A stretch of 63,926 nt of DNA, the filler included, from Intoshia linei (lineage: Eukaryota; Animalia; Orthonectida), in the NCBI GenBank assembly GCA_001642005.1. It is 5 parts of 5 records of this genome, joined end to end, with 100 filler letters (N's around TTAATTAATTAA, not from the genome) between each part and the next. Parts side by side here need not be neighbours in the genome. Positions count along the whole stretch, not along the records: positions 30,458 to 52,332 come from LWCA01000616.1; 4 more parts are not named here. One strand, given 5' to 3'. The notes beneath the pieces were generated by a model. The model searched no databases. It was not told the DNA's origin and saw only the letters and a list, made by a program, of their open reading frames with translations. How positions within the stretch are numbered: position 1 is the stretch's first letter; each line of letters starts with the position of its first letter. The position numbers were made by a program, and so were the translations under genes. Positions 12,935 through 53,763 of the stretch are shown one piece after another.

Positions 12935-13047
12935 TATATGTATTATATTAACTTTTACCTATTTAATTAATGTCATTAAACGTGTACCTTTGCCAGTACT
13001 TTTAGTTGAATGGGAAAATTATATTTATTATGTACATTAATTGAATA

Positions 13048-24086: not shown

Positions 24087-27000
24087 TATGCAAAAATAGA
24101 ATACCGAAATGTAAGACATGTTCAAAAGACGGACAAACATGCATAATCTGTGAAGAGAATTATAAATTAATAAAAAGATTTTGTTATGGTATATATAATT
24201 ATATAAAGTTACATAGTGAAACAAGTGATTTTGAAGTAGATTTTTTTAAAATATAAATATTGTTACATTAAAAATTATTTACATTGACTTGCGATTTAAC
24301 ATGTAATTTTAATGTTATAATATTTATATGACATAGATTGATATAGTATTATTATTAGATTGCCAAAATTTCTTACAAGTCGATTTGAAAAGATATCAAT
24401 TTAAACAAAAATATATTGCAAAATAAAAATTTATTATTGCTAATTTGAAATTTATATTTTTTTATAATTCAAAAATTTTTAAAGTTACATATTTTTTTTA
24501 TAAGTTACAATTGCTTTATGTTATAGATTAAAAATAAATTGCCGTATTAATAACATTTCAAGTTATTTATTCATTTATTGGTATATTTATTTAGAAAATT
24601 AGAGATTATATTTAAGTAATTTGTATAGTAAATGCATTTTGTGTTGAATATAATATAAAAATGTAACTTTGAATACAAATTGTACTAAGAAAGTTGGGTC
24701 AAAATTTTTAACAACGTGTTAAATTTATATTTCACCACTTTAATTGAGAAATTCAAACAAAAAAAATACAGCGTTAACCAAATTTCACAAAAAATTCTGG
24801 ACGATTCTTCACAAATGTTGTTTTCTTACTTTTTTTTAAAAAAAAATTAGATATGATATTATCAAAACTAATATTTTTTTTAATTGACATTAAGGAGAGC
24901 GCATTCAAACGAGGTTTAAGCTAAGCAATTTCGAAGTTTATTCTTAATTATTTTTAGTTTAGAAAATGTTCAAACTTCAATAAACTTTAAAATTTATAAA
25001 CTGATTCTTAAGATAATAATGTGAAGTATTTTTTAATAAATTGGAGCTTAGTTTTAAGATATAAATGTAAAGTACTTTTATTAATTTAGGGGCCTTTTTT
25101 TAAAATATAAATGTAAGTACTTTTATTAATTAATAGTACTTTTTGATGTTTTTATTTATGATAATGTGAATTATTATTTTTGTACATTTACGTGCAAGTT
25201 ATATTTAATTTTAGTTTTATTATTCAGAAGTTAACTTAAAAAAATAAATTTTACGCAATGGATAAACTATACAAAATAATATTTTATTTTTAATTTCCAG
25301 GATCGAATAATCGCAAAATAATGAAGAAAAAAATTTCATTTATTGTAAAACGGTTAATAAATAAAGCACTTATTTTTGATATTAACAATATAAGTTTCAG
25401 TTTATAATTGAAATCAATGGTTTTTAACTTTTTTTGACAATGAACTACTGGTAAAATAAAAAAATTCTTATAATTTTGTAGAATATGACGCATATCATTA
25501 GTAGGTTAAAATTGAAAAAATAGTTGTTTAGATATGTATGTAATTATTATTAACAAAATATATAATTTGATAGCCCAAAAAGTTACATTTATTATAAATA
25601 TTACGTAGGTAAATTACACTATATTTTTTTCTTTTAGTTCCCAATTGTAAAAAATATAGTCTTCACGAGCATCCTATAACTGGTGATGCATGTATAAAAT
25701 GTGATTTGGGATTTTCAAAAAAAAATTCCGGTGATGCATGTAAAGGTAACAATTATTATATTTTACTATTTAACAGGTTAGTGGAAAAGCATTTAGATTA
25801 TATAATTAACATAATTATTTTGAATATCTTAAAATGTTAACTTTAATATAATAAGATTATATTTAAAATAGGTGACTGTTATGTACTACGTACAAACAGT
25901 ACCTAGTTCTGTTAAAGCTTACAAACCCTGTTTTAATCGCTTCGTGGTTTGTATATATTTTGTTCTTTTAATTTAATTTGTTTGTTAGGAATATAATTGT
26001 CAGTGTGGTAACTTTTACTTTTCTAGACACGTTTATCGTAGTGATGTTTCATTCGATCCATGTAATTACGATTGTGGAAATTAATGGTTTTTTTGAATGT
26101 CTTCATCCCAGTTTTCAAAATTTTTTGTACATCGGGTTCTTAGTTTTTTGCGAAAGGTTCTGTTCAGCCGTTCTACAGTACCGATTTTCTGGTGGTAATA
26201 AGCTTTATTTTGAGTAAATGTACTTGATACTTTAAAATGTTTGCATAGTAGTTTAGTTAATGCTGTTTCGAATTGGTTACCCTGGTCGGTAAATTTCAAA
26301 TTCTTATTTTCAAAACATTTTATTTTTTACAAAATATTTTAATGTGTTAATAAACATTATTTATTCGTTTAGAATGTATACACGTGTACCTAGTTTTGTT
26401 TAGAGTACATTTATATTCTACCAAAAAAATAAATTTAATTAACAAAACACTTTTAATTATATTTAATCTTTAATTTTAATTTAATAAATATTATATTTAA
26501 ATATAATCTCTCCTAACTAGAACAATTTTTTTAATAATCTAACGACTGATTTTAGTAACATTTAGCTATTATCAGTAATTTTTAAAAAATATGATATGTA
26601 GACTAGACATGACTAATTTAAAAAATAAGTTAATTATAAATGTTTGTATGTTGAAACAATGAGAAAATAAATATAAAATAGTGTAATAATTTTAAAGTTC
26701 GTCGAAATTTTAAAAGACATACGCCATAATTTAAAAGCTTTATTTTATATATATAATATATAGTTATAACATTTGTCGCAATAAATTTTCCATTCAAATA
26801 TATTACATTAGAAACATCCCATATTTCTATTAATATGTTTATTATTCCTTGTTCATAAATTAGCATACATTTTTTGTTTTTTTGATGGATATTTTTGAAT
26901 GTATGACCAATTTAGCAGTACTGGAAGTATTATGACGTTTTAAAACATTCTTACTATATAAAACAATAGATTCTAAATTTTTCGGATCATTTAAAATTAC

Positions 27001-30000
27001 TTCATTATCATCATAGTTTAAATTTTCACATGTTGAAATACGAGAAGAACAGATATTATCATGGATATATTTAACTAGCTTGACAGTTTGGTATTACGTA
27101 CAAACAGCACCTAGTTCTGCCAAGGGCACTCTTTTATTATACTAAAAAAATAAATTTACGTTGAAAATCTAACTTAAAAATTGTACTAGTTACTATTATC
27201 AATCATTTAAAAGAGTGGTTCCCAAATTTGTTTCGGGTGGCACCGTCATATCACATTACTTTTTAATATAAAGTGTATAATAATTCATTCCATCTTAATT
27301 TTGTTTTGTTAACATTTGCGTAAAGTATTTTAAAAACAATTATTATCCAATTTTTTTAATTTATTAGACAGAATGTATGTATAATATTAAAAATAAAAAG
27401 TAAAAACGGTCCAATCTTAAAAATTGTCATAAATACCATAAATTTCAGAAAAAAATAAAATTATAAAAACCTATTTTGTCATTTTCAATGTAATCATATA
27501 TATTCAGTACTAATTTAATAAATACTTAAAAATACCGATAAGGTATTAATAATTAATTGAATCTTCACTTTATAAATATTTAAGTCGAATTTTATATTAT
27601 TGCAAAAAATTGTAACATAAAATTTTACTTTTTTTTTTGGCATTTTAATCAATTAGTAAAACAATAACATGTTTTAAATTAAATTAAGTTAGTATAAAAC
27701 TTTTATAAATTTGTTGCCGTAGTTTAATTAAGATGTGTTTAAAATGTTTTGAAAATGAAAAATTAAAATTTAAAAATTGCGTAGCAATTAAAAAAATTTC
27801 GAAGGAATGAATTTTATAGATTTTTATTTATATGTCTTTATTGGAAATGTGTAGTCGTACAATCCACATTTTTTTTGAAATTCTAGGATTAATATTTACA
27901 TTTTTAAGTTTTGATTTAAATAAAAATATTTGCAAAATATTGATTGATAGTATATGATGTCTTTATCCTAGTTCTCAAAATTATTTTGATATCTGTTTCT
28001 TAGTTTTTCGCGAAAGATTTTATTAAGCCATTTTACAGTACTGATTTTCTGGTGTTTATAAGCTTTATTTTGAGTTAGTGTACATGAAACTCCAAAATGT
28101 TTGCATAGTAGTTTAGTGAAATTCGCTTTGAATTGTCTACCCTGGTCGGTCTGTATTGGTTTTGGCGGACTGAATTTTACGATAATATTTTTGTATATAG
28201 CTCTTGACCCCGATTCAGCGGTTATATCGTTTAATGGCACGAATTCTAACCAACCTGTATAATAATCCAGATGTTAATTATATACTGATATCCGTTAATT
28301 GAAATTGGAAATGGTCTTAATATATTGACTTGCCATCTGACTTGTAAATAAAATTTAATTAAAGCGTAACACACACACAAACGAAAATCGCGTAGAGTTT
28401 TATATTAAGTTGGCAACTAAGTTCTTGCCATTTTTTAATTATGCAATAGTTACTGGCGATGAAAAATGGATCCTGTATATATATGAAGCAGCGCAAGGAA
28501 TGGCTTCGTTTTAATAAAAAAGCGACATTACGTGTGAAACACGATCTTTATTCGCGTAAAACAATGTTATATGTATGGTGAGACTGGGAGGGGATTATTT
28601 ATTAATAATTGCTATAAAGAAATCAAATAATCAATGTGAAACTTTATGTTTAACAGATGGAATGACTAAAAACGACTATTCAGGAAAAGAGACCTAATTG
28701 ACAGCACCTTGTTCTTTTACTGCATGACAACGCCCGCCCTCATATTGCAAATATGACCAAAGAAGCTATTTAAAAACACGAGGAAGGTGCTGCTATACTC
28801 GCCATACTCGCTGGATTTGGAACCACCATTTTTGGCGCTGCTTTATATTGATATACAGGCACCATTTTTCATTGCCAGTAACTATTGCATAATTATAAAA
28901 CGGCAAGAACTTAGTTGCCAACCCAATATAAATTAGGATTATTGCTATAAATGTATGACTTTTTATTTATTTTTTTCAGTTTTTTAGGAATATAAAGGCG
29001 TAACGTTTTAAAAATATCACCTTCTAATACTATTGTTTTGTCGACTAAATTCTCAGATAATTAAATAAATAAAATTATCCGTTATAATACGATTTAATTA
29101 GTAAATTCAACTAAATATTACACTTTAGATATAAATTGTGAAACTTGGGATGACAATAATATATACTGTTCAACATGTAAGGATAATTCTGAATTAATAT
29201 TTAAACCAAACGGAGAGGCAAATTGCCCAGGTTAGTAGTAATTTGATATTTAAGTGTTTTACGCAGAGTTGTCTACGTATCATCAAAAATCCAACTTTCT
29301 TATTAATTTATCAGGAAAAAACTCAACTGTGCAACAACATACCAATTTTTTTTATTTTTGCTTTACACTGAATTTATTTGTCAAATGAATGCTACTTTTT
29401 TTAAATTCTTTACTTATAATCAGGGCGATTATTTTTTAATTAGGGCAAATTTTGATATCTTCATACGCATCAAATTACAATAAAAATTATAATAATTTTA
29501 CGTATATTAATTAGCTAATAAAAATTTGATTAAGTTAATAAAGTTAAACGCCTTAATAAAATTAAAATAATAATTTCAAAAGTTAAATTATATTTTCAAC
29601 AATTAATTTTGTTTTATACAATTTTGTTTTGTTGTGTACTTTTATTTTAGACATGATTGTAGTAAATAAACTTATTGATTTTTATATTATTCACTTAAAG
29701 CAATTTGTATTTATTCTTAACTTATTTCTATTCACAATATAGGTAATTTAGCAATACGTTTATATGATTAATGTTTTTTTAAGCATGACCAAATTTAATT
29801 TAAAACTATAACAACGATTACTAAAAGTAATACCACTTTGTTAGTATCATTTTAGTCATTAATCGTTTTTATTATTCATTTCTAATTTCCAGGATCGAAT
29901 AATCGCAAAATAATGAAGACGAAAATTTCATTTATTGTAAAACGGTTAATAAATAAAGCACTTGTTCTTGATATTAACAAGATAAGTTTTAGTTAATAAT

Positions 30001-31514: not shown

Positions 31515-34500
31515 CGCTATACTCTCAATACCGAAATATCGGTAATCTTACTGTATTTAGCTGAAAGTAACACGTTAAATTTGATTCGAATGTAATAACA
31601 ATCAATATAAATCAGAATATATTGCAATTTGTAATATTTTAAAAATGAAATAATTTATTAAAACCTATTTTTGGGGTACTTTACAATAAAAGGTACCCAA
31701 ACCAAGGTCTTACTGTACAAGTGCTACGGAAAACATTAAAAAATTAAAATTTTTGTAACAACTGTATATTGGATTGTTTGTTCAACAAAAATCTTTTTTT
31801 GGTTGATATTGCGTATTAAATAGTTAAAATGTGAGAAATCGAAACGATCGACTTCAATTTGGTATATTTATAATATATACATTGAATTTGTTAATGAGAC
31901 TATACAAACATACATTTATTACAATATTTACAACTAAAAAAACTTACAATTAGAAATGAATATAAAAATAAACATTTTTGACGCGATAAATATATTTTAT
32001 CAAAAATATGAAAATCTGTTACACTTAAACTTGAAAACACCAATAAACGTATTACAAATAATTATGTAGATACACTCACTAAATATTAGGAATTGGAACA
32101 CTTAGTAGATCTGACCTACAAAAGCTACAATCGTATAGATTCCAGTTACAGTGTATAAAAAAGTAATGCATTAATGCCAACAATTTTAGACATTATTTGA
32201 TATAGAAAATTTACTCGAAAATATAAATGAAAATTGCGAAAATATTTTAAATAAATAATTTAATTTAAATTTTATACACCATACAAAATATTTGCAAAAC
32301 AAACAGTGTTGTCATAAAACGAACACGAAACAATATCATCAGAATGGCTAGAGGTTTTGGTATTGTCAAAATCAAATCCATAAACTAAAGACGAATGGGA
32401 AAAATTTTCAGATAAATTTAAACTCGTTGTAATATTAAAATTATCTAAATAAAATGTAAAAATATATTTTTTTAAATACCATCCAAAGTAATAATGGTTG
32501 GTCCAGCGTTCAGGCAGGCTAAATAGAGTCTACTAAATTCTTTATTGTAACGCATTCTCCAAGTTGGGGTACTTATTTTTAAAACATTGAAAGGGTTTGA
32601 TAAATTCCTCATATCGTATATTAAAATATCATTGTCATAACTAAATTAAAATTAATATTCCAGATCAGAGTCAGATTGGGTATTTTCAATGTATTTCTTA
32701 TAGTCACGAATGCACTTTGTAAAAAGTCACCGCACAATTTTTATTATCAAATACTGCTTAGATTTGTAAAATTCAATGAAATTATGTCATTTATTTTGTT
32801 TATTCATAAAAAATAAATATTTAAGACCGTTAATTATTTCACATTTTTTGTTTTATAGTCCTCAACATACACAAGCGTTATAAAATTAGATTCTAAAATA
32901 ATAAATGAAACAATCCACAAATTTTTAGAGGTATAAATAATGCAGGAGATTACAGCACAAATACTAATTAAACCAATCAAACGCGTTTAAAATAAACAAA
33001 AGTTCAAACCAAAATTGTAGTGAAATGTAATGTGACTAAAATGTAAACCAAAACGTAAAAAAACGTCGAAGTTGTATTTGTGCTGTTATAACCATAGTAC
33101 TAAATTATATAATTCATAAGGAACTAGAAATTTCTAATTTAAAACGACAGTTTTAAAGAGTACTGTAATAGGTGACGGGGACTATTAATAAAATATTTCG
33201 GAAAAAAATATATGAATACTAAAATGCTTTTTTGACCGTGAAATCGTCACTTATTCGGATTAAAATTTTTTGTGTGTGTTAACAGGATACAACTGTACAA
33301 CCTGTAAATTTTTTTCAATTCTAGGACTGTTTATATAAAAAAGGATAATTTGGTGTTTTGGCCATGAAGATATCTTTTTTTTAAATTTAAATTTGATAAT
33401 ATTGATAATTTCAGAATTCGTATCAGAGTATATATTTTTTTAAATTCTCGAACTCGTTTGCTTTTCAAAAAATGGACAATTAAGTTTTTTGACCCGTAAG
33501 ATGGGAGTTTGGGAGGTTGAAATTTATTTCGCTAACACCCCTGGAAAAAACTGTAATTGACTGTGGACTTTATAAAATTTGATTAAAAGTCAACATTTGG
33601 GCAAGTTTCAAATTTCGACTCAGTGTATGAAATGGTTATCTAATACTAAATAATCAAATGGACATAATTTATAACCAGTATAAATACCCCGATATACTCT
33701 ATATGCAAATGAGCTAAACATACCTCCCCACTAAAAATTGTTCATCAGATAGAAATTCTAGACATAAACCGCCAGTTTTGGTCCTAATGTATAAATATAA
33801 TTTAAATAAAAATAACACTGTTCTTCACTCATTCTCGTTCCTCACTTATTCAGATCTGGTTTACAAAATTTATATATTATATTATATAGGAATTTATTAC
33901 TATCCGATAAACTGTTATTCAATCTCTATTGACATATGTCAAAATATTTTATTACTAGAGACATTCATAGAACATAATGATTAGGTTACGTAACATTTTA
34001 ATTAAGCTCTTAAAGAAGTTTGCATCATTGCAAATTCAATAATGGCATAATTGTGTTTATGATAAAGTTTGATAATTGTTGTGCTGTGCTTAATGACTTT
34101 AGACTCTAAAGTGTTTCTTAAACGGTGTGCCGCGAGATTTTCTAGGCGTGCCGAGGAGAAATTTCATTTAATAATATTAATTAGTGTCGTATACGATTAC
34201 GGAACATACTATACATTTTTCATGGAAATAATGTAAAAAGTTTAATATTAGTTAAATTATTAATAAATTTAGTGATGTTTAAAAAAGTGACGGGATCACA
34301 TCAAAATATTAGCTTTTACTATTTCATTATACATTTTGTATATAAGATGTTTTATGCAGGACCGTGGAGAGGGGGCTAAGGGGCCATATGGCTTATTAAT
34401 ATTATTTGAAAACTTTTGAATTTGTACTTATGACTGTTATTTGGCTTAAAATACTTAGAGATAGATTATGTTAATTTAATCCTAGAATGCACTGATTTAA

Positions 34501-34759
34501 CTTAAAATGTTAAAAAGGGTAACATCATTCATCTCAAGGTCTAATAAGGTCAAGAACTAATCTCATTTCATATCATGGTTTAATGATTTTCCGATCTTTA
34601 TAAAACTTGTCTTGTTTTTTTAAAAAAGGGCGTACAAATGCGTAATTATTATTATAATAAGATTTTGATTTTTGAACGTGAAAATCGTAATTTTTTTCAT
34701 TAAGTTACAATATTGTTTTGACGCGTTTTTAAATAGAATTAAAATCAGATTAATTTTTC

Positions 34760-36540
34760 GATATCTGATCATACATGTTTGTTCCTATAACAATTTCAGA
34801 AGGTGATACACCATTCTTTGAAGTGATGGTACTGCGTAGGCTCATAAGAATACACTGAAGTGATTATTCCCATAACGGATCATCAGATTCACATAAAATA
34901 CGTAATCGTTCATTTAGCTCGATTATAGCGTTTTACCATTCTATTTTGTTTGTGTTCATATGGTGCTAAAAATGATTGTTCGACATTATACATTTTACAC
35001 AACTTTTTAATTATCTCAGCCTGAAACTGTTTAGCATAATCCATATGTAACCTATTAGGCGGCCCATAACGATATAATATTTTCCAAAATAGCAGTGTAA
35101 ATTAGGGTATTTCACAATTTTCAAATTTCATAATTTTTGAGAACTTTAGCATAAAAAATGATTAAATTGATATAAAAATCACTATATTGCAAAAAAAAAA
35201 TATATAAAATCTTTGTTTGAAGTTGCCCCATAAAAGAGGTTTTCAATATCAAAATTCATAATAAAAAGTAAAATAAACTTAAATTCTGAAATTATTCTGA
35301 AAATGGACTTAAAACAAGATTTTTTTGTAAATTTTTATATAAATTACCAATTTCACAACAGACTACCTACTAACGAACATGTTATCAATAGGATATTGGC
35401 AATGAAGCACGACAAAATCATAAAACCTTATAGAGTCATTTCAAGAGAAATTGAAAAAATTGTAATTGCTTCAGGATTAAAATCCTTCAGAATAGATCGA
35501 ATGGAAGTAAAAATTAAATTTTTATGGTCTATGTATAAATCAGGAAACAAGCGAAAATCATCCAAAGCAGCCAATAATCTAAAAAATTTTTACCAAATTT
35601 GTTTAAATTTTATAAAAAGTGTCAAGCAGGAACCTTGGAGGAAGATTTAAAATTTCTTGAAGTTCAAGAACAGAATGGTACAGGATTTATTTCAAATATC
35701 CCTATTGAAGATAACATTCACCTAACAAATTCTTCAAACCCAAAAAAATAATATTAATGACGATAAACGTATTAAAAAGGTGAAACGGGAGTATAATGAA
35801 ATTAAGTACATGATGTGGCCTTCCTCAAGTGAAAATGAAATACATAATTCCAAAGAGGTCAAACCAAATCTATGGAATGAAAGCGATAGAAGAGGAGCTA
35901 GTGCTTTGTTCAATGTTTCGTATTCTATTGTCAAAAGAAACAGACTAAAAAGTCGCTTGTCCTTAGCTAACAATATAAATTTGAACATTGACGCTATCAA
36001 AGAATGTGTTGTTTATTATGATGGTAAATCATTTAGGACTGGATACGAGCGCATTGCTGTAGTGGTAATTGATATAGCCACTTGTAAAGAATATATATTA
36101 TCAATCCCTGAACAAAGTGGCGGAAAAGGTGTCACCATCCTTCATATTTAGCCTTTTTTCAAAATTTAATTTAATCAATAATTGGGTTCTGACACCGTAA
36201 TTATCTTAAATTATCATTAAAATGCCAAAGAGTGAGACACATAGCAACGGAGTATGTATATAAGACTTAATTTTAAAAATGTAACTTTATTTCAATTTAT
36301 ATTATGCAATTTTACATTAAAAATTTATTTACTTTGGGGCAACTTCAAACAGTTTTTATATAAAAATTTTTGTATTTCACTGATTTCTATTTCAATTTAA
36401 TCATTTTGTATACTAAAGTTCTTACCAAATCTAAAATTTTTAAAAATGTGAAACACCCTAGTGTAAATATTATGTGCTGTAATAAATTGCATAGGTTGGA
36501 CTTCAATCCAACCTGAATAATGGTCTACCATAACCTAGCA
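34760..36540 (-). mobile_element. Retroviral-type integrase remnant split by the hATm insertion
   Basis: Joining across the TSD gives VMVDHYSGWIEVQPMQFITAHNIY|TAILENII.RYGPPNRLHMDYAKQFQAEIIKKLCKMYNV...APYEHKQN...ERLRILC...MSLRST...GVSPSEIV.G. Confidence 0.8.
35103..36460 (+). mobile_element. Internally deleted hATm-like DNA transposon with ~130-bp TIRs and an 8-bp TSD
   Basis: GTGTAAAT|TAGGGTATTTCACAATTTT ... AAAATGTGAAACACCCTA|GTGTAAAT. The ORFs contain RLPTNEHVI and VYYDGK...ERIAVVV. Confidence 0.85.
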
Positions 36541-36640
36541 TTAATTTATTAATTATAGAAAATAAAAATGATCACAAATATGATGATAAACTAAAAGCAA
36601 ACCTTTTAACTTATTTATTGAACAACAGAGCAAGAAATCC

Positions 36641-37057
36641 ATTTGTCCTGAAAATTTGACGGGCAATGTAGATGATGGCACATTCTATTTTGAAGATAAT
36701 TATATGAATATGCGCATTACAAAAGGAGCCAGCTATAAACATATGCTATGGCAACATTATATGGAGATTGTAACTGCAAGGGATGGTTTGTACATGACGT
36801 TTTTCGAATTCGTGTAGCGCCTCATAGATACGTTGTTATTTATACGCCACAAAGCTGCACACCAAACTATGTTTTAGACAAATTCGACAACTATGCTTCT
36901 CGACGAGTAGTCGTGAGCACCAACAATGGTGCCAACCTAATGCGGACAATCTGCAACGGGTTGTGCAATCACTGTTGACACTATTACCTATTCAATTTTT
37001 CACTCATGTATAATACAACTGGAAGCGAAGAACATAGAACCTGACAGTGAGTACTGA
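36641..37057 (+). pseudogene. Endogenous nodavirus-like element: fragment of the protein A N-terminal capping (MTase-GTase) region, frameshifted
   Basis: ICPENLTGNVDDGTFYFEDNYMNMRITKGASYKHMLWQH / GDCNCKGWFVHDVFRIRVAPHRYVVIYTP...RRVVVSTNNG / AITVDTITYSIFHSCII. This is colinear with the recalled nodavirus pattern F.P..V.G...D..F.....N...M.V.GGA.YKH.LWDY...P.R.++...P. Confidence 0.7.
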
Positions 37058-37606
37058 AGCTAAGAAAAAATTAATTGTTAGTTATCATTTAAACAATGTA
37101 TGATAGTGTAGAAATCTTTTTCTACTTAATTATTTTTAAAATAAATCTGCAATACCGATATTGCGGGTTTATTAAATACTCCTGGTTACACGGTAATATT
37201 TCACGTAAATAAATTTATATCTCATTTAAATTTCGAAACCGTAGGGTGGAAGATAAAAGCCAAGATAAATTGAAAATCAGATAATGGGTTGACAATAATC
37301 CAAATCTTTAACTTAATCTTTAAAATGTCTCACATTACAAGAGTTAAACATTGATTGTAGCACTACACATTTTAATGCTTAAATTAAAATAAATGAAATC
37401 GATTTAGAAAAAGTTGATGTTTAATTTAAAATAATAGATATTAAAAAGCAATATTGTTTTCAATTTCTAAGTATGCAATCAAATTCAAAAAAACAGACAA
37501 AAATGGGAGTTAAAATAGATATATTGTTATAACGTTTTGTTTTATTATTCATATTTTATTTTATCTATTTTTATAGGATCCATTAGAAGCAAATCCATGC
37601 GAAGTG

Positions 37607-37885
37607 ATGCAAAAGTTAGTGTTAGCAGCAGCTGTCGATGGAGATTGAAACTGGTAGCTTCGGCAAATGGTGTTTCTATCAATACTGCTTATGATTGGAT
37701 AAGGAAATGAACCAGAAAAACAACGAGGAGACAATGAGGAAAAAAAGGTACAAAAAATGGATGGATGACAAATGTAGGGGTCAATCTTACGACAATGCTG
37801 CCAACATGTCTGGGCGTTATAAAGGGATGCAGCAAATAATCTTAGAAACAGACAAGGTTGCTATATATGTGCCCTGTGCAGCAGA
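37607..37885 (+). mobile_element. Abutting fragments of a Tc1-like N-terminal HTH and a hAT (Tip100/ZMYM1-type) transposase
   Basis: KLVASANGVSINTAYDWIRK..RG, followed by KCRGQSYDNAANMSGRYKGMQ..I......AIYVPCAA. Confidence 0.7.
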
Positions 37886-40719
37886 AATCAGTCTCTGAAA
37901 CAGTGGATATTAAAAACAATTGATGCTGATATAACGTGGATATATCTGTTACCACATATTATACACTATTACCACTATTCACAGGGTGACATAAAAAATT
38001 CCATTTTCTATTTTTATGGGTAGCTCTGGTTTTAATACGTATTAATAAATGGAATAAGATAAATCAATTTTAAGATTTACATCAAACGTAAAATAACATG
38101 ACGGTAAGTCCACAAGTTATATTAAAAATATGCTTCGCGATGCGAATGCAAGTATACATGTCCTATACAAGTCACACAACACTACAATTATAAAAACACG
38201 TATCAAATTGAAACAAAATTCATTAAATTAATTAGTATATTATATAACATTCGAGTATATTAGTTATGGGTTTTCACCGATTGGCCTCCTGTGTCACTGA
38301 CAGTGGGCCAAAAAAATTTTTAAACGCAAAAATAAATCCATTGAAAAAATTTTTTATATTTTTTTTATTAAAGTTGTGATAACTGAATTTTATGAATACC
38401 ATATGATAAATTCATATATTGGCTACAATTTGATAAAATAATTAGGTATATTGACGATGCAGTTCTATAAATACACGCTTTTATTTGCCTTATACTCCCA
38501 ATGTGAACATATGGAATGTAAAATAACTCCATAACTACAATTGGTAATTACCAAAATTGAAAAAATTTGTCTGGGGATATTAGGATTAATTAAAATGGCA
38601 TTTTAATTGTAATGTAAACATTTCCATAATAAAATGCTATTGATTGCAAACATAACCTTATTGCTATTAAATGCAACGAGATGTAACTGTGGATAAGTAT
38701 CGATAAACATAATACCAATATTTATGTATTATTATTTAATTGTAATATTGTGAATTTAAATTGATTGACGACATAATAATCTAATCTGATACATATTCAT
38801 TCTAAATTCATTTTTGGTTCAGTGTACTTTTGATATACATTTAATTTATAAATTTTTGATTAAATTTTAATCGTGATTCGAACCAAAACTTTTCATTTTG
38901 TAATTACATATCACCACAACACTGTCCGATGCAGAACTCTGATAAGGTATAAATAAAATATTACGCTTTAATAGAATGAACCAGATTGGCACATTTTTTT
39001 GACCAAATTTTTATATAACAATCGTCGGATACTAAAATTACATATTATAGAATAAATAAACAGCAATTGAGTAATGTTAATATTATGTAATAATCTAGGG
39101 TGTCCAGATTTTATAATTACTAATTAAGTACTTTTCAAATTTCTTAGAAACAAAAAAAATCAATAAAATTGGAACTAAAAGTTCTAACAATTTTGAAATT
39201 TTCAAAAAAACCCAATTTCTAATGATTTTCCCCATAACGTGTTTTTATTCATTTTACAGTTTCAGAATTTGAGTTTTACAGTGTCCAAAACCTAATTTCC
39301 CCTTTTGTTTAAAAAAAATCAACCTAAAAATTTAATAAAACATACATTTTGGAAAATTTATTGTAAAAACAGCACATACAAAAACGGCACAACTTCAATA
39401 ATCATAATTACATAACAACGAAAATACAATTGTATTAATATGATTCACAAGTAGAACTTGACATTAAAAGACTATTGTAATAAATTCATTTTCGTAATTA
39501 ACATTTTAAAATTTGGGCTTGTAATAATTAAAACTAATTTCACTGCGTTAATAACAGGAATACTGCAAAATAGTAACTAATAATTAACACTTTTTAACAG
39601 CATAACTCTATTTTTCACTACGAAACATCATATATTGTATATTTTTAATTAGAATTATAATTGAATATAATAAAAAAATATTCTCTAGTGTGAACACAAT
39701 AGAATATTTTTAATTTTTTTGTAATATGGTTTGTAGGTAAAAAATTAATCTTAATACTTCAGTTTTAACTTAAATCTGTAGTGGATGAATTCTATAAAAT
39801 CTATTAATAATAATAAAAATGAATCTAATATAGGTCAAATTTTAATTGAAATTGCGTTATATCAGTGTAGTTTCGGTATTCATTATATTCATTATTCATT
39901 GCTATGTAATTATAATTATTTAAATTGTGCCGTTTTTGTAGATTACCTTCTGGAACGCGTTTTAAAAGCAATGAAATCGTATTTTTTAGTACAAAAATTG
40001 TATCGTTAAATTGAATACATATTAAATTTAGATTGGTAATAGTGCGTATTTAGTACGTTTTTCGGTGTTGCAAAAAAAAAGTACTTTTGGTCGCTTTTAT
40101 CTAAGTCGAACTGCTTCATTAAACTATAAAAATTACATGAATAAATGCAGCCATTGTTCCCAACTTTTCCATACCAACAGGTATATTCGTGAGCCTTTTC
40201 ATTAAATGATATCTGTTTTAAATTTTCATCAAATATACTCAAAGCTCCTGAATCATATGTTATACATCCAAATTTTCTATAATAATTTAATTTAATTACG
40301 ATTCTATTAACTAGGGCAAGTAAAAATTAATTTTTATATACGGCACACAATGTTTGGATCATTATAACAATACATGTACCATTGCAATAAATGAGTATTT
40401 CTATTAAGATGTTGCACCCCCATATAACTGTAGAGGTAATTGGAAAAGATGTAATATCATTCCTGACATTGAATGAGTCGTCAATTTTTGATAGAAGGAC
40501 GACTGAGAAATACTGAAACAATAGCTAAAACTTTTATATTTCTCAAGTACAAAAATTCCGATAAATTTAAACTTAAAATTATACTATCATAATTATATTC
40601 TAATTAATAATAAAGCTTTTTCGGTTCTAATCATATCTTTAGATACGCAAAACATTTTATTTTTACTCTAAATACAATTTATACACAACAATAATAAAAA
40701 TTAGAAAATCATTTTCTTT

Positions 40720-41463
40720 ACAAAAAAAAATTTTGGATATCAAAATACACCAACAAAAATTTGTCTGTGAAAAGTAGTCTTGCATCGTCAACTGTTTTAG
40801 ATATTAAAAAAAACTCAGAAATAATAATACATAATAAAAGAACAAACAAAAATTTTAAACAAAGAAAATGATTAACGAAGATTGTGGTGGATTAAAAAAG
40901 TTCAAAGCCAGTGATGGATAACTAAAGTCATTCAAACGCAGGTGATACATCCTATAAAACGTTGTCTGGTACAAAAGCATCATTTAGTCAAAATAATATT
41001 GATGATTTCTTTCACATTTTAAAAAATAAATTAATTGAGTATGAAATAAAGGACATTTTTAATGCCGATGAAACTGCACTATATTATAAAAAATTGCCTA
41101 CAAAAATCTTTAGTACATTTAGTTACATCTTTAGTGCACAGGAATCTACTAAAAAGATTAAAGACAATAAAGATAGAATAACAATTTTACTCAACTGTAG
41201 TGCTGATGGTAAACAAATCAAACCGTTATTCATTGAAAAAAGTGCCAAACCAAGGTATTTCAAAGGATTAAATATGAATGAACAACCTTTCTATTGTAAA
41301 AGTAATTCAAGTAATGACAAGTCGAATATTTCACGATTATATGAATAATTTAAATTATTTATTTTACAAAACTAATGGAAAGGTTCTTATTTTGATAGAC
41401 AATTGTCAATTCTATATAAAAAACAAGATAATCATTTCCTTTGAGTTCAATTTATATTTATAA
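40720..41463 (+). mobile_element. Tigger/pogo (DDE_1) transposase remnant
   Basis: FKASDG*LKSFKRR, DIFNADETALYYKKLP, KDRITILLNCSADG, KPLFIEKSAKPRYFK, KVLILIDNC. Confidence 0.9.
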
Positions 41464-41975: not shown

Positions 41976-44340
41976 AGATCCCTGTCACAATTGTTTAGTA
42001 GAATTTGCTAGAGGGCAGTTATTAGGAGAAAGTTATATGTCAATTTTTAAACATCAGTTATTTCATGAACATTCAGAAAACGGTATATGTCTCCAACAAT
42101 AGGGATAGTGTTAGTGGGCATAGTGAAATGGTTACTTAATGAGGAAACACATTGTTGTTTGAAGCATACATTAATAAAGTATTTTGGAAGTACAATAATA
42201 GGATCTAGTTTGAAATCGATGTTTGCAAATAAATTTTCATGTGTACCAGAAGGACAGATAAATACTTATGCACTTAATGGCATATATGAAGTTTTGTCCA
42301 CGCTTAATCCACTTGCAAATATGGACAAGAGTAGATATATGGAGGCTGCCAATTTTTCAAAAAGTTTTTCTTCTAATTGTACTGCAGTTCAAAAGTTAGA
42401 AATTACTTTACTAAGTTTACTAAATTGTTTAGTTACTGCTTATAAGTCATCTATGGAAATTTTGCCTTCAGAAGTATCTTCGTGGGTTAAAACAGTAGAT
42501 GACCTTCAAGTCCTCTATAAAGCTAATAAAGAATTCATGTTTAGTCGCCAATGAACAAGTTTAGCCTGTATCGATCAAAAATTTTTAACTTATATACAAC
42601 ATAAGGACTAAAATATCAGACCAAATTTTCACTTATAGATATTAAGAGTAAAAATTATCAAATCATTACCTCTAGAATGGCCAAACTTAAACAAATCATT
42701 ACACAATCATGTTCTTCTTACATGGGCAATGACAAAAAACAGAAGCCCTTACTTATTTACTTACATGAATTTCCTGGTATAAGTAAAACCATATGTGTAG
42801 ATCATCTTTTTACTGATCTCTTTGCTTTGTTAAAAAGAGATGTCTATAATCCGGAAACTGATAAATATTGTTATAATAGTTTAAGCCCTTTCTTTGACAC
42901 ATACAATCATCAACCAGTTTTTGAAATTTCAGACTTTATGCAGATGCGTAATAAAAATGTCCAAATGTGTGAAATAGTTAATGCACTAAAAGCCGGAGAT
43001 AAAAGTAGCTTTCCTTTGAATATTGCCAAATGTCAAGCCAAGGGTACTGTTTACTTCACATCAGACTTTTAGTTATAACGAGTAATTTGGATCCTCTTGC
43101 ACACAAAGCCACATTGGGTTCAGTTATGGATAAACCTGAAGCATTCAATAGAAGAATTGATGTTAAAGCTTATGTTACATGTGATTTTTCCATGGCATCA
43201 AAAAATTCCACTATTTATAATAAAGACAGCATGGTTATTCAATGTTAAATTAAGGGATGTTAAAAAAGTTTATGGATGGAACGATTTTGTGGCACTATTA
43301 TATCAAAAATATATAGCACAAAGAATAATATCCTCAAATATGACTGATTGTTCAGGTCATTATCATAAAGAACGTATACCACACATTGAATCTTTACTAA
43401 ATAAGGATTTTGGGGGTAGAGATACCGAACTACCAACTAAGGTGTCTCTTTTTGCAAACCTTTGACAATTTAATTCTTCACTGTGATAATGATTTTTGAC
43501 GTGATTGTAATAGAGTTGCTGAGACTCATCCAGAATTTGCAGACCACTGATACAATATTAGAAGACATACTTTCAAAAGTGAACAAGGAGCTGTGCACAA
43601 ATGTAATAAAACATGCAAATTTAAGATTGCTGTAGGACAATATTTAGAAACTAATTCACATCTAGAAATCCATCAATTGGATCTTTCTCTTGATGACTAT
43701 CCCATTGCGAAGTTGAAATTAAGTGAAAATATAAATAAATATCAAATCCAGTTTGATAAATTTGCGACCGATAATAAGATTTTTATAGAAGCGCAATTTT
43801 TAAATACTACGCAAACATTTGGCAAAAAAGACAATCCCCGATATATCATTGCTTGTAAGAATTGGGTGCTCGCAGTAAATGTATTAAGAGCCCAGAACTA
43901 AACAGTGAACGCAATTATGTTTTTACTGAGTCTGATACGATTGTAAAACCCTATGAAAAAACATTGAAAGAGTTTGTTAAAATGAGGGCTGAGAGTGTGA
44001 ATGCAAACAATGAAATTCATATTGGTAATCCCGTTGACGAAATGTTATCTGAGATAGATAATGAAAGAAAAACGCTTAGATCAAATTGGCCATGAAGGCG
44101 TTTTCGGCAATTGAACAATTCGGCGATTTGTGTGATTGGAGTGAATACCAAAAATCAAAATCACTGTGGTATGTTTTAAAGCGTAAAGCTTTAGAAAAAA
44201 TCAAAGCCGTTATGGGTGTGCCTAAACATGACGAGAAGTCATATTTGGCAATGAAGCTAATTGCTATGGGTGAATCACAACCAGGCGATCGTGAGAAACA
44301 AAATTTTGTGCTAGTGAATAGATGCGAATCAGAGATGGTA
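41976..44340 (+). pseudogene. Endogenous picorna-like viral element: 2B-like region, 2C/SF3 RNA helicase and downstream unassigned ORFs; stops and frameshifts present
   Basis: KPLLIYLHEFPGISKT (decayed Walker A), FFDTYNHQPVFEISDF (motif B), FPLNIAKCQAKGTVYFTSDF/LVITSN (motif C) and PEAFNRRID (Arg finger). Intronless, ORF-dense and less AT-rich than its flanks. Helicase core ~42740-43165; sequence after ~43500 is assigned only by continuity. Confidence 0.88.
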
Positions 44341-44399
44341 ATATTTTTTTATACTTGATAACTCAGGATAATCAAAAATATGATTTTTATTTTTTAGAT

Positions 44400-44696: not shown

Positions 44697-47110
44697 TAAT
44701 TTAATAGTTTCAGCGTCTAATTAATCCCGCTTCTATAATTATAATTAGCATAATTATTAATTGTAATTAATTATATAAAATTAAAATTCTAAATTGATTG
44801 AAGTAAATTTTATTTTAAATAAACGTAACATTATTTAATATAAAACATAGCGTTTACTGAATTTATTGTATTAACGTCTTTTAATTTTTAATAAAACTTT
44901 AAAATTTCTATAAAACAGTAATTACTTTTTTTATAATCATAATAATTTTAAATAGATGTTTTCTACTATGAAAGATTACGTATCATCCAAATCGGAAAAT
45001 AATATTAATGATGACAGGCAAATCAGGGAAAGAGCAAGAATATATTCAATGAATACTGTGTTCAATTCTGCCGTGTAAGCGAAACAGTACATAGAAGTTG
45101 ATACTTGATCTATTAATACAACTGGAAAAACATTATGTGGTAAAAATGTGTTCTATCGTTGCAAAAAAACGATCAATACTAATAAAAATTCGTGTAAAGC
45201 TAGTTTATACTTGTTATATCATAATAATAATCAACAAGTATCGTTTTGAGCATTCTTAGAATGCAAAAATACGGTCCATGCTCTATTAGCATAGGCGATT
45301 TATATTATTTCTGTTTAAATAACTCAAGTATTCCGACTATTACTGATAATGCATATGTTGTTAAACATTCTATATGTAATGACAGCTTCAGTATATTTGT
45401 CTCTTCCCCTACTCTATTGAATTTATCCGGTAATATTAAATGCATCCACTCTGATGCCACATATAAACTAATATGGCAGGGATACCCTGTCTTGATCGTG
45501 GGTACAACAGATATAGACAGAAAATTCCATCCTTCAGGAGTTGGTGTTTGTACAAATGAAAAATCTAATGATTTCAAATTTTTATTTAATGGGTTAAAAA
45601 AAGGTGTTGAATAATGTAGTAATGTTAGTACATTTAATCCTCGAATACTAATAGCTGACAACAGTGCCGCCATAACATCAGGATTTTCTAACGTTTTTAA
45701 CATGAAAAAACGTATAAATTGTTGGTTTCATATAATCAAGTCTGTAGAAAAGCATGTCAGTTTCCTTTCTCTTAATTCTCGTACAAAAAACGAAATAAAG
45801 TCTGATATATGTCATATTCCACTGCAATTTTTCACAAGTATTCACGAGTTTTTGTTTAAAATGGTCACATTGCACCGAATTTATTCGTTATTTTGAACAC
45901 CAATGGAAGTCTCCACCAAATATGAATTGGTATGAAAGATTTGTTGATTTTTTACCTTCAACTAACAATGGTCTTGAGTCTTACAATCGATTGATTAAGG
46001 ATGAAAATACACTTAGAAATAGGTTACCACTGGGTCAATTTCTAAAAATTTTATTTGAAAGTATTATATTTCTAATAATTCTCGAAATTCTACAAATCCA
46101 AATGCCAAATTGTATGTGACAAAACAGACATTAACCACTAAAAATTAGACAGATGCGTATCAATGGATTCAAAAACGAAAGACTATTATTATGTCACATG
46201 ATCAGTATTATGTACCAACTGGAAATGATGTTGACTTGACCGAGGACCAAGTGAGTCAATATATGGATTCAATAAATCAAAACAGATTTAAAAATTTTTT
46301 CAATATGAGAAAATGTTTAAATTCTGTTTAGAAAGTATCGCTAAATCGTAATAATTGGAAGTTTTTGAAGTGTACGTGTCCCTTTTGGAGTAAACCTTAC
46401 ATGTGTAAACATTCCATCGGTATAGCAATACGATTAAAAATCGATGGGTGTATTGTACCTCGAGAGGCGAAAGCTCTGTCATTGAATATTAAAAAAAAGA
46501 GAGGACGACCAGCTCAGACTAATCAAGCTTTGATGAGGCAGTGATAAATTCAAATATAAATGTTTTTAATTAATAATAATAAATTTTAAATTTATTTACA
46601 GTGAACGACAGCTAGTATGCTAAAAAAATAAAATCTTTAATACTTAATATACATTTTATTTAAAAAAAAAACTATTTGAGTTAAAAAAGACAGCACAAAT
46701 ATTGTTCACTCTGAAATCGTTGTTATTTAGGCTGGGTTTTTAAATTTCATAAATCTAATATTACAAGTACGTGAGTTACAATAATAATAATTTCATTGAA
46801 CGTTTTTCGAAAATTAATTCATAACAAATAAAATAAAGTAAATTTATTAATAAAGTAAGCAATTTGATAGCCTAGAACAACTTGTGCTGTTTATATATAC
46901 ACCATATCAATAGATATAAAAGGGTAGAAAGTTTGAATTCAATTGAGAAAGGTTATATTTTTCCCCTAGCACAATAGCTGTCGAACACTATTAATATCAA
47001 TAAATTAAAAGTTAGTTTTATAAAAACCAATGTTATGTTTAAATAAAATAAATGCTACTTCTATTAATTTAGACGCTGAAATAACTATAGACGCTGTAAC
47101 TATTAAATTA
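44697..47110 (+). mobile_element. Decayed MULE/Mutator transposon with SWIM finger and TIRs
   Basis: HSDATYKLIWQGYPVLIVGTTD, LIADNSAAI, CWFHI, STNNGLESYNRLIK, CTCPFWSKPYMCKHSIGIA and KRGRP. TAATTTAATAGTTTCAGCGTCTA (44697) is the near reverse complement of TAGACGCTGTAACTATTAAATTA (ends 47110). Confidence 0.9.
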
Positions 47111-49380: not shown

Positions 49381-49540
49381 AAAAAGTATTGTTAGTGTAA
49401 ATGCGGTAAATTGGAATATGATTTCATGATAGAGTGTGACACATGTAAAGATTGGTTCCATGGTAGGTGTGTTAAATTAAAAAAAACAGAGGCGGATAAA
49501 ATGCAAAATTTTGTTTGTAAAAATTGTAAAAAATTGGAGA
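49381..49540 (+). pseudogene. PHD finger remnant, probably TE-associated
   Basis: [32 protein letters not shown]......NFVCKNC (C4HC3), with an in-frame stop. Confidence 0.7.
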
Positions 49541-49689
49541 TGAAAATGTATAAAAAACGGCCTAATAAATTTAAAGATTTTGTTGTTGAAAACCAAATAT
49601 TGATGAAGATTAAAAGTTATGATCATAATGAAAAAGTTGTGGTGGAGAAAACCAATCTTAAAATAATGGTGGAAAAATAAGCAATATTT

Positions 49690-51390
49690 CGATAGTGGGT
49701 GAGAAGAAGAATTTCAAATTTCATTTGTATTGTATCAGATTGTATTTTAAAGTAACGATAACTATTTTGAATTTTGTTCTTAAATTTATTTTCTAGATCA
49801 TTAAAATTCTTCAACTTCAAGCATGAGACAACATGCTAGTAAGAAGCATGATGTGGTTTTGGATGATTCCTCATCTTTACATAGCACCAAAAGTTTTCTT
49901 CTAAATTTACCTAAGCATGAAGTTGAAAAATTAAATAATAATTAAATGGAAAATGATAATAGTGGATGGCAGATCATTTTCTGATTTTCAAAAAAAAATT
50001 AAATCATTTTTGAAAGATGGCATTCCAAAAAGTTACCAGTTGATAAGCCGGTTTCAAGCTGCACGGAAAATTACAGATTTATATATGAAAAAAACATTGA
50101 AATTAAAAAATGAATTGAAAGAAACTGATGTTCTAAGTCTTACCCCTGATATGTGGTCATCAAGCAATAAAAACACATTTATGGTGATAACAGCTCACTA
50201 TATACATCAAAATAATCTTAAATCCATTGTACTGGATTTTCGCCATTTTTCTGGTAGGTATACTGGTTTACATATTGCAAATAGAATGTTTGAAATTCAT
50301 AAAAAATTTGAAATTGTGGAAAAAACTAGATTTGCAACAACTGACAGCGGTGCCAATATTATCAAAGGTTTCAAAGACTTTAAATCAATGTATGGAGTTG
50401 ATATTGAACGATTTCCTTGTATTTCACATACATTGCATTTGATAATTACCAAGTCACTTCAGTTATGGAGTCAAAGAACTATTGCTAATGATGATAATGC
50501 TGACTATGAGTTTAGTATTGAAGATATTGATATAATTGCTGACATAAATATATCATCGGAAAATGAAGCAGACACTCATGAAACCATTGAAAGATATTTA
50601 TATGATAGTGAAAACGAAACTGATAATGATAAAGTATTGATAAATAATAGCATTGAAATATTCAGTTTAGCTCTTTAAAAAATTAAAAAAACGATTGTGT
50701 TACTAAATCAATGCCCCAGATTGAATATGGCATTACAAGAAAAGTTGAAAACAAATAGTGATAGCAAAGCAATTCCATGTTTAGATTCAAAAACTCGTTG
50801 GAATTCAACATATCACATGATAGATAGAATTAATAACATTCAGATAAATACATGCTTATCAGACAACAGATCACTAAGTTTCTGACAGATGCTGCTTTCG
50901 CAAAAAACCGTAAAAAGATTGATAAATTCCATAAACAAATTCTGAATTCAGAAGAGACCACTTCTTTGAGTGCATGCCTTGTAATAATTGAACCTTTTAT
51001 AAAATTTACTGTTATTTTGAGTGGAACGTCATATACAACATCAGCTTTAGCACTTCCAATGATTAAAATCATTTGTGAGGTTGCTTCGGCTAAGCAAACT
51101 GATGATTTATTATTGAAATTCTTAAGAAAGAATAAATAAATGGCTTGTCATTATTTCTATGATGAAGCTGGAGAACTCAAAAAGCACGTAATGAATCTGC
51201 TGTGGAATATTGGACCAAAAGCAACCTAACAATTTTAAAAAAAGTTTCTATCAAGTTTGTTGTCACTCCTTTAACCTCAGTAGCATCAGAATCAACTTTT
51301 AGTATTAGTGGCATCATCATTTCCAAAACAAGAGTAAGACTGAAAAATTATAACATAAAAAAACTGTTGTTTTTGAAAGACAAATTATAA
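49690..51390 (+). mobile_element. Decayed hAT (Ac/ZBED-type) transposase
   Basis: SLTPDMWSS, FMVITAHYI, TTDSGANI, PCISHTLHL, LDSKTRWNSTYHM, and the hATC motif PLTSVASESTFSISG.IISKTRVRL. Confidence 0.92.
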
Positions 51391-52570: not shown

Positions 52571-52930
52571 GTTAGGGCTGAAAAGTAAAAGGGAAAATTA
52601 TAAAAATCATGAAAGCTATCATATCAATAAAAAGAATATTGATATTAAAAGATCATAACAAATGTAATTTTATTCTAAATAAACCCCTGTAAATCTTCTA
52701 TTGACTTACCAAAGAGAATCCAAAATCGAAAAGCGGATATAAAAAGTAAAATATTAAAACAAATATTACAAATAATAAAACCGATTTCATCCAATAAAAA
52801 TCCAATAAAATATTAAGGTAGTGTGTTACACATCACATTATTTGACATACAAAACGGTATAAAACTTGGCAAACAGTATATATATTATTGTATATGTTAT
52901 ATACTATATAACATAGGTAAAAAAAATTAC

Positions 52931-53763
52931 CCATAGCAGCAAATTGCATATTACAAACAGACCCATGTGGACTGATTCTGTATAAATGAGATCCTTTATT
53001 GTCCACTCCTCCAAGAATAAATGCAGCCGATATATACCCCATATGCCTAAATAATGAAGAATAAAGAAGATAAAAGACAAAAAACTTGAATAATTCTTGT
53101 CTAATTTGCCTACAAGCTGCAGAAACATATGGCTTTTTTTTCCAAGTCAATTGCATCAATTGCATTTTTGAAGATATAAGTCTATAAAATTATTAAATTT
53201 TAGCTAACTAAATTCTCAACATGAAAAGTTTAAGTTTTAAAAATAAATTAAAAATGACTAAAAATAAAAATACTCTGTAGTCATTTCAGCATCAGCTGCA
53301 GTGCCAGCTCCGCAACAACTAATTTAAATTAATAAAAAAACAATATAAACAAACTAAATATAATCGCTGATATAATGAATCTTTTCGCAATTTTTATCGG
53401 CTACAATAGGTCCATTTGTTGCTCTTGTATCTGCACCCAAAATTATACCACCCTAAAATTATAATTTAAAAATTAACATTGTATATATACAAAAATTACT
53501 TAGATTGAAAAAATAAAAATACTAATTTACTTTAAAAATAATCCCAACAATCGTAGTTCCCGTTTTAACTGATTTTAATTTTGCCTCTTTAAAAGTTTCA
53601 TTTCTAAATGTAAAAATATAAATTGAAATGCCTTGAAATTATCCAATCAACTAATAATCATATTTACTAATCATTGAAATTTTTTTAAATCAAATATATA
53701 CCTCGATACATTCTCAAAACAAAATCCTGGAACGTGATTTTCATTTTTTTGTAAATCTAACAT
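52931..53763 (-). CDS. PSMB7: Proteasome subunit beta type-7 (beta2), first six exons: 53763-53702, 53603-53531, 53452-53355, 53318-53274, 53181-53086, 53046-52931; 3' exons not seen
   Basis: [90 protein letters not shown]...AMG. All GT-AG introns splice in frame. Confidence 0.93.

What the first reader, a model, noticed from the sequence alone, without database searches (positions are those of the whole stretch)
36641..37057. Cryptic nodavirus-like endogenous element hidden by frameshifts
Seen: the ORF track shows only a 76-aa orphan. The overlapping frame from 36641 reads ICPENLTGNVDDGTFYFEDNYMNMRITKGASYKHMLWQH. It shifts into ...GWFVHDVFRIRVAPHRYVVIYTP and returns to AITVDTITYSIFHSCII. The block is visibly richer in GC than its flanks. 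Established (recalled, not searched): the nodavirus protein A capping region has YTF.P..V.G...D.......N......V.GG..Y.H.LWDY followed by P.R..+...P. Inference: a second, independent (+)RNA virus integration, ~100 bp from an integrase remnant.
Basis: partly seen in the sequence, partly recalled or inferred. Interest (0 to 1): 0.8.

Follow-up and report, generated by a model that had tools for sequence, protein, structure and literature searches.

The report
Nodavirus-like fossil in orthonectid genome
A broken 0.3-0.4 kb piece of a nodavirus-like RNA virus gene sits in the chromosome of the tiny parasitic worm Intoshia linei, recording infection by a virus lineage with no close sequenced relative, and its edge is likely spliced backwards into the leader of a host RNA.

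Summary
The element is real. 36638-36781 (+) matches the nodavirus capping-enzyme family PF19222 above its cut-off. After a frame break at about 36782-36789, 36790-36963 continues the same protein. The third frame is only weakly supported. The host is Intoshia linei, which holds a second, frame-intact copy elsewhere (A3Q56_02412, 71% alike). Both copies already carry PF19222 in database records, so the element is less cryptic than claimed. The copies form one very long branch among noda-like viruses. Neither keeps the catalytic His/Arg motif, and no polymerase part lies in the window. This copy is a dead fragment, about 110 bp from an LTR-type integrase remnant. Contigs of two runs join 36603-36684 to 38965 (GT-AG on the minus strand) and to about 33869, so 44-47 antisense viral bases likely enter the leader of a host WD40 gene. 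Independence from the picorna-like remnant at 42-44 kb is not shown: the second copy begins with sequence matching 43940-44002. Verdict: a new member of a known but rarely reported kind; function unshown.

The parts
36638..36781 (+). Noda-like protein A piece 1: end of the MTase-GTase core, including the conserved aromatic residue (Y here) and the H-x-x-W motif
   Evidence: PF19222 E 1.9e-7, profile positions 100-147 of 148; 71% identical to P0002 over 48 aa; rank 1 of 2735 window segments, E 1.9e-11, against a profile of noda-like loci
36790..36963 (+). Noda-like protein A piece 2, in another frame: extension after the core
   Evidence: 72% identical to P0002 141-183 over 43 aa; rank 1 of 2735 segments, E 0.012-0.028, against profiles built only from sequence downstream of the selecting motif; 0 of 100 shuffles reach its pairwise score
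36965..37054 (+). Probable piece 3, back in the first frame; weak
   Evidence: Rank 6 among the 2735 segments searched, E 7.2, at the profile positions that follow piece 2; mean pairwise score reached by 0 of 100 shuffles and top-10 score by 1 of 100; no match to P0002; GC 0.36 against 0.26 just beyond
36603..36684 (-). Likely 82-nt exon of a minus-strand host RNA; its first 44-47 nt and its AG acceptor lie in antisense viral sequence
   Evidence: One contig each in runs X3 and X4 fits 36599-36684 and goes on at both sides with letters found at 38965 on and at 33849-33865; acceptor TAG at 36687-36685 and donor AG|GT at 36602; a contig of X2 starts exactly at 36603
36685..38964 (-). Likely 2280-nt intron that removes most of the viral fragment
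   Evidence: Unique joint with GT..AG ends on the - strand; chance of canonical ends at a random joint here is 0.4%
33870..36602 (-). Possible second intron; donor is GT, but the acceptor reads AA in this assembly, so it is unresolved
   Evidence: the acceptor lay outside the stretch laid, so alleles there were not seen
32275..33869 (-). Host WD40-type gene, likely DPH7 (name recalled from motifs; no call confirms it); likely ATG at 33832; two 35-nt GT-AG introns
   Evidence: Weak hits to WD40 proteins only, best E 0.052; none for the last exon or in Pfam; intron ends read
36469..36528 (-). LTR-retroelement integrase remnant, upstream half
   Evidence: Matches a gypsy-like pol at E 0.006 and residues 2-21 of the window's other integrase remnant at E 1.8e-4
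34919..35092 (-). Same integrase, downstream half
   Evidence: Pfam rve E 9.5e-5, below its cut-off; matches residues 26-85 of the same query, E 1.4e-7
35103..36460 (.). DNA-transposon remnant that split the integrase: inverted ends of about 190 nt, 8-bp target duplication GTGTAAAT
   Evidence: Arms 77% alike over 192 nt; outer 13 nt agree at 12 places and the same 8-mer flanks both sides
36545..36639 (.). 95-nt stretch also present in another genomic context; it ends where viral homology begins
   Evidence: A second contig in X2 fits 36545-36639 and has loose ends on both sides; the same variants appear in a second X1 contig
42069..44355 (+). Neighbouring picorna-like remnant; helicase at 42605-43069; outer limits inferred from open frames
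   Evidence: PF00910 E 7.2e-9; Atlas first hit 0.95, clusters mostly viral with Pisuviricota commonest; frames
43940..44002 (+). Stretch matching residues 2-22 of the second noda-like copy (P0002); not noda-like itself
   Evidence: 33.1 bits, 0 of 100 shuffles reach it (best 20.4); its frame ranks 338th against the noda core profile

Best explanation
This is a broken chromosomal fragment of the capping-enzyme region of a noda-like RNA virus replicase in Intoshia linei, likely copied into DNA by a retrotransposon's reverse transcriptase, unable to make a working enzyme, and likely read today only backwards as part of a host transcript. Shown: family identity, first frame break, absence of the catalytic His/Arg region and of any polymerase part in the window, contiguity with host-side DNA, a second copy in the species. 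Inferred: germ-line infection of the orthonectid itself; reverse transcription by an LTR element; later decay; chance use of an antisense AG as a splice acceptor, which would put 44-47 viral bases and two short upstream reading frames into the leader of a WD40 (likely DPH7) mRNA. No selected function is needed to explain any of it.
For: PF19222 above cut-off. The only real protein hits among 5.8 billion and 1.84 billion proteins are the two I. linei copies (2 of 2; 2 of 3, the third a spurious repeat). P0002 hits PF19222 at E 2.5e-26, the RNA-directed RNA polymerase of PDB 8FM9 at E 3.9e-7 (recalled as Flock House virus protein A), and 229 of 240 noda-like proteins at E 1e-5 or better. 9 of 10 Atlas structure rows are PF19222 clusters. 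Piece 1 begins at column 123 of a 172-column core profile; the H and R columns (32, 39) have no residue in either copy. tblastn of 240 noda-like proteins finds only 36590-36963 plus one stray hit from a single query. One 1411-nt X1 contig spans 36389-37799 with 5 differences and no gap, and a 322-nt X2 contig from a second study spans the left edge and the first break with no gap. Joined contigs in X3 and X4 have GT-AG ends at one joint. GC3 is 0.33-0.43 in the pieces against 0.15-0.21 in three host exons.
Against: No LTR pair, reverse transcriptase or retroelement sequence was found on the 3' side, so capture by the neighbouring element rests on proximity in a region crowded with TE remnants. 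Runs X2-X4 are of unrecorded kind and are contigs only, so strand and RNA nature are inferred from the joint. The second joint lacks an AG in this assembly. 53 loose-end rows and 82 pieces were not shown, so I cannot say that the joined form is absent from the DNA run X1. X1 may be the source of the assembly. Piece 3 is weak. The WD40 gene's name is recalled.
Confidence: 0.75

Rival explanations
1. Antiviral memory: the fragment is kept because the minus-strand transcript carries it antisense and would feed small RNAs (piRNA- or siRNA-like) against a noda-like virus, as in mosquito EVE clusters.
For: The likely transcript is antisense to the viral gene. The picorna-like remnant 5 kb away has the same orientation. 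The region is dense in TE remnants. EVE-derived piRNAs are established in arthropods (search listings and abstract starts).
Against: No small-RNA data were available. Only 44-47 viral bases are in the spliced form. The transcript leads into an ordinary-looking protein gene. I found no paper on Piwi or Argonaute genes in Intoshia (one search listed none on it), and no genome was held to test for them.
Confidence: 0.15
2. Not an independent insertion: noda-like and picorna-like RNAs were joined during reverse transcription, or one composite locus was copied and rearranged, so this piece, the 42-44 kb remnant and A3Q56_02412 share a history.
For: P0002 residues 2-22 match 43940-44002 (0 of 100 shuffles), and its noda homology starts only at about residue 12-22. 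Both remnants lie on the + strand within 8 kb.
Against: The order differs (noda before picorna here, the reverse in P0002). 5 kb of TE remnants and a likely host exon lie between them. The copies differ at 28-29% of residues. That 43940-44002 is picorna-like polyprotein is inferred from position only (searches gave no homolog).
Confidence: 0.3
3. A domesticated protein: the NCBI model A3Q56_04668 (transposon exon + viral exon + transposon exon) is real and uses the viral piece.
For: The model exists and its three exons map to 35813-36064, about 36630-36787 and about 37580-37707.
Against: Exon 1 lies inside a DNA-transposon remnant. The cluster has one member. The joints seen are on the other strand. 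Catalytic residues are missing.
Confidence: 0.04
4. An assembly artefact or contaminant rather than chromosomal DNA.
For: Many places in the assembly differ from all contigs laid there, and X1 may be its source.
Against: An RNA virus should not be in a DNA library. The piece is frameshifted. Single contigs of two studies cross its left edge, and the X1 contig crosses both edges. The window holds ordinary eukaryotic genes.
Confidence: 0.02

Closest known systems
eBxnv-1, endogenous nodavirus-like element of Bursaphelenchus xylophilus (PMC5177903; parts 1-2 of 4 of the text read)
   Same: Noda-like protein A sequence in an animal genome, beside LTR-retrotransposon sequence, transcribed, not close to known viruses.
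   Different: eBxnv-1 is an intact 570-aa polymerase ORF between two LTRs, single copy. This one is a frameshifted capping-domain fragment with no LTR pair found, has a second copy in the species, and is likely read antisense.
[quoted passage not shown]
   Same: End of the core with the aromatic residue equivalent to W215 and the conserved W220, and the start of the downstream extension.
   Different: His, Arg and Asp positions lie upstream of the fragment's start; no polymerase; identity to 229 relatives is only 21-43% for the intact copy.
I. linei A3Q56_02412 (P0002; UniRef 'Nodavirus methyltransferase domain-containing protein')
   Same: 71-72% identical; sister rows at 100/99 support; both have WQH where 96% of relatives have Y at the last position.
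   Different: 242-aa open frame without the break, covers more of the core, also lacks the His/Arg motif, and starts with non-noda sequence.
Viral-family RdRP genes in the I. linei proteome (PMC6396948, passages seen)
   Same: Shows that RNA-virus-derived genes in this species were already noted as probable transfers from viruses.
   Different: The passages name no virus family, and concern polymerases rather than this capping fragment. The figure was not seen; 7 supplements held no 'Intoshia'.

Membership tests
Noda-group protein A capping domain (PF19222) | Score above the Pfam gathering cut-off | tested here: met
   31.3 bits against 30 for piece 1; 92.6 bits for P0002
Noda-group protein A capping domain (PF19222) | Conserved aromatic residue (W215 equivalent) and following H-x-x-W | tested here: met
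   Y, H, L and W present in both copies at columns 90-100% conserved in 151 relatives; alignment to 8FM9 via P0002
Noda-group protein A capping domain (PF19222) | Catalytic His, Arg seven residues later, SAM-binding Asp (PMC4392871) | tested here: not met
   Piece 1 starts at column 123 of 172, past all three. P0002 keeps the Asp but not His or Arg. This lowers 'active enzyme', not 'derived from the family'.
Noda-group protein A capping domain (PF19222) | Collinear downstream extension | tested here: met
   Piece 2 ranks first of 2735 segments against motif-independent profiles; piece 3 inconclusive
Nodaviridae (ICTV family) | RdRp placing it within alpha- or betanodaviruses; bipartite genome with capsid segment | not testable with these tools
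   No polymerase or capsid part in the window. The capping-region tree gives a 3.0 changes/column stem with weak placement (68/74) and held no classified nodavirus row. Filed as noda-like only.
Non-retroviral endogenous viral element | Contiguous with host DNA in genomic reads | tested here: met
   X1 contig 36389-37799; X2 contig 36603-36924; eukaryotic genes in the window
Non-retroviral endogenous viral element | Signs of decay (frame breaks, truncation) | tested here: met
   First break present without gap in contigs of two studies; 5' truncation
EVE captured inside an LTR retrotransposon (eBxnv-1 type) | Two LTRs and pol remnants around the viral sequence | tested here: inconclusive
   Integrase remnant 110 bp away on one side; no long direct repeat among the 20 of 41 families shown for 27-46 kb and no pol match on the 3' side
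piRNA-producing EVE cluster | Antisense small RNAs from the element; host Piwi pathway | not testable with these tools
   No small-RNA reads or whole genome available

The most novel reading that the evidence does not exclude
Orthonectids carry their own deep-branching noda-like and picorna-like viruses, whose RNAs were captured together more than once. In this locus the host transcribes the noda-like piece antisense within the leader and intron of a housekeeping gene, forming a heritable antiviral small-RNA source in a highly reduced animal genome.
Probability: 0.12. Interest if true: 0.72.

Novelty: new member of a known kind. Interest (0 to 1): 0.42.

Why it matters
Noda-like EVEs are rarely reported; the 2016 nematode case called itself the first (PMC5177903). 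My searches found no paper holding both 'Intoshia' and 'nodavirus', and none of the six listed for 'Intoshia linei' plus 'virus' describes this element in the passages or abstract starts I saw. The two copies give a host record for a noda-like lineage with no relative above 43% identity among 240 proteins, which makes a directed virus hunt in orthonectid RNA possible. The likely antisense exon is a clean, testable case of an RNA-virus fossil supplying a splice site to a host transcript. Without small-RNA or selection data it remains an ordinary decayed EVE with an unusual host.

Tried and rejected
No whole genome was held, so copy number and the second copy's flanks were not examined. No RNA holder was listed among sequencing runs; this is not evidence either way. 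A wider read-laying was not obtained, so the full exon structure and alleles at 33870 stay open. P0003, the third hit, is a tandem-repeat protein with no real match. P0002 found no longer relatives by word search (0 of 1099 candidates). Exact-peptide scans found nothing in viral contigs. The 3 metagenome loci do not match the noda profile or proteins. Piece 1 alone has no meaningful PDB hit. A stray hit at 37764-37976 came from 1 of 240 queries and crosses two stops; rejected. Atlas feature hits for P0002 were all under 0.9. Pfam gave nothing useful for 22 small frames or for the WD40 exons. The noda-like loci were picked by a motif that piece 1 partly shares (120 of about 660 matches), so piece 1's score is partly circular; Pfam and the downstream-only profiles are not. 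The tree used 48 of 240 relatives (best 45 by score plus named ones, proteins under 500 aa dropped), with P0002 residues 1-22 left out; the window rows filled only 18-21% of columns. Earlier findings of this scan: none relevant. Papers with nothing on this element in the passages seen: 10.1101/2023.11.03.565523 (its supplements were not seen and may list orthonectid viral reads), PMC12548735 (two supplements searched), PMC7943196. The 2016 I. linei genome paper was not read.

Full report
Observation. The block has 39.1% GC against 25.9% for the window, a level reached by 1.0% of 417-base stretches. The frame 36590-36814 hits Pfam PF19222 (nodavirus methyltransferase) at E 1.9e-7, 31.3 bits against a cut-off of 30.

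Host and prior annotation. A protein search returned two proteins, both from Intoshia linei. A3Q56_04668 (P0001) is a gene model of this very locus, with the viral piece as its middle exon. A3Q56_02412 (P0002, 242 aa) is a second copy elsewhere, named in UniRef as a nodavirus methyltransferase domain protein. Both carry PF19222 in the precomputed record, so the element is auto-annotated, though I found no paper on it. PMC6396948 already says that the I. linei proteome holds viral-family RdRP genes, probably acquired from viruses (passages). An HMMER scan of 1.84 billion representatives added only a spurious repeat protein.

Anatomy. Against P0002 the window gives two collinear matches in two frames: 36638-36781 (71% over 48 aa) and 36790-36918 (72% over 43 aa). 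The first break therefore lies at about 36782-36789. I gathered 120 noda-like loci and 120 noda-like proteins. Piece 1 ranks first of 2735 window segments, which is partly circular because the loci were chosen by a shared motif. Piece 2 ranks first against profiles built only downstream of that motif (E 0.028 and 0.012), and 0 of 100 shuffles reach its pairwise score. Piece 3 ranks sixth (E 7.2) at the expected next profile positions: suggestive, not proven. Piece 1 starts at column 123 of a 172-column core profile. The His and Arg named as key in PMC4392871 (passages) have no residue in either copy, while the aromatic W215-equivalent and the H-x-x-W motif are kept. No polymerase part occurs in the searched window. 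This copy cannot encode a working enzyme.

Relationship. P0002 matches 229 of 240 noda-like proteins at only 21-43% identity, PDB 8FM9 at E 3.9e-7, and PF19222 clusters by predicted structure in 9 of 10 rows. In a tree of 51 rows the Intoshia rows group at 100/99 on a stem of 3.0 changes per column, with weak placement. I file it as noda-like, not as Nodaviridae.

Integration. In run X1 one 1411-nt contig spans 36389-37799 with five differences and no gap. In X2, from a second study, a 322-nt contig spans the left edge and the first break with no gap. X1 may be the assembly's source. The window holds eukaryotic genes and many TE remnants. An integrase remnant lies on the minus strand at 36469-36528 and continues at 34919-35092. 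It is split by a 1358-nt DNA-transposon remnant with inverted ends and an 8-bp target duplication. A 95-nt stretch found in another context ends at 36639, where viral homology starts. No LTR pair or pol sequence was found on the far side. Reverse transcription by a retroelement is therefore inferred from established knowledge and from the eBxnv-1 precedent (PMC5177903, parts 1-2 of 4 read), not shown.

Likely antisense exon. One contig each in X3 and X4 fits 36599-36684 and continues with letters that map at 38965 on one side and at 33849-33865 on the other. On the minus strand the first joint is unique and reads GT..AG over 2280 nt; the chance at a random joint here is 0.4%. The second has a good donor at 36602, and a contig of X2 begins exactly at 36603, but the acceptor reads AA in this assembly. 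The downstream exon lies a few bases from an ATG at 33832 that opens an intron-bearing WD40-type gene. Its 35-nt introns fit the short introns reported for this species (PMC6543705, passages). The name DPH7 is recalled from motifs. The 82-nt exon holds two ATGs, and two of its three frames stop inside it. Limits: the kind of X2-X4 is unrecorded, contigs show no strand, the joints were read from loose ends, and 53 loose-end rows were not shown, so absence of the joined form from DNA is not established.

Independence. The neighbouring remnant at 42-44 kb has a picorna-type SF3 helicase, so it comes from a different virus. But residues 2-22 of P0002 match 43940-44002 (0 of 100 shuffles), and that stretch is not noda-like. 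At the second locus the noda-like frame thus seems fused to sequence related to the tail of this remnant. Co-capture or copying of a composite locus stays open (0.3).

Verdict. A genuine, decayed noda-like EVE in an orthonectid (0.95 for identity and integration; 0.75 for the whole account). It is a new member of a known, rarely reported kind. The antisense exon (about 0.65) is the more interesting part; an antiviral small-RNA role is untested (0.15). Interest 0.42.

Noticed in passing
window 42069-44355 (+): Broken picorna-like polyprotein remnant with an SF3 helicase (PF00910 E 7.2e-9; Atlas 0.95); no close relative in viral contigs.
   Followed up: partly
window 43940-44002 (+): Matches the first 21 residues of the second noda-like copy A3Q56_02412, hinting at a picorna-like/noda-like fusion at that other locus.
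   Followed up: partly
window 35103-36460: DNA-transposon remnant with about 190-nt inverted ends and an 8-bp target duplication, nested in an LTR integrase; superfamily not determined.
   Followed up: yes
window 35813-37707 (+): NCBI model A3Q56_04668 stitches a transposon frame, the viral piece and a third remnant into one 180-aa protein; probably a false gene.
   Followed up: partly
window 32275-33869 (-): WD40-type gene, likely DPH7 (recalled), with 35-nt introns and likely long non-coding leader introns full of TE and viral remnants; one acceptor reads AA in the assembly.
   Followed up: partly
window 27971-28273 and 26084-26326 (-): Two further integrase remnants; an inverted repeat pair at 28399-28480/28851-28932 (91% over 82 nt) lies beside the first.
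   Followed up: no
window 34643-34677: A 35-nt stretch fits a contig with the same loose ends on both sides in all four runs laid; a repeat or a small exon, not examined.
   Followed up: no
window 34500-38500: Several places differ from the assembly in every contig laid there, including a 16-base gap at 35469 in X1 and X2; alleles or assembly errors.
   Followed up: no
window 45231-46541, 49396-51387, 40926-41345 (+): MULE/SWIM, PHD with hAT dimerisation domain, and DDE_1 transposase remnants.
   Followed up: no
window 2742-16772 and 52836-53189: Ordinary host genes: Rab-GAP TBC, Sas10, AFG1-like ATPase, G-patch/KOW, GAF-phosphodiesterase, proteasome subunit.
   Followed up: no
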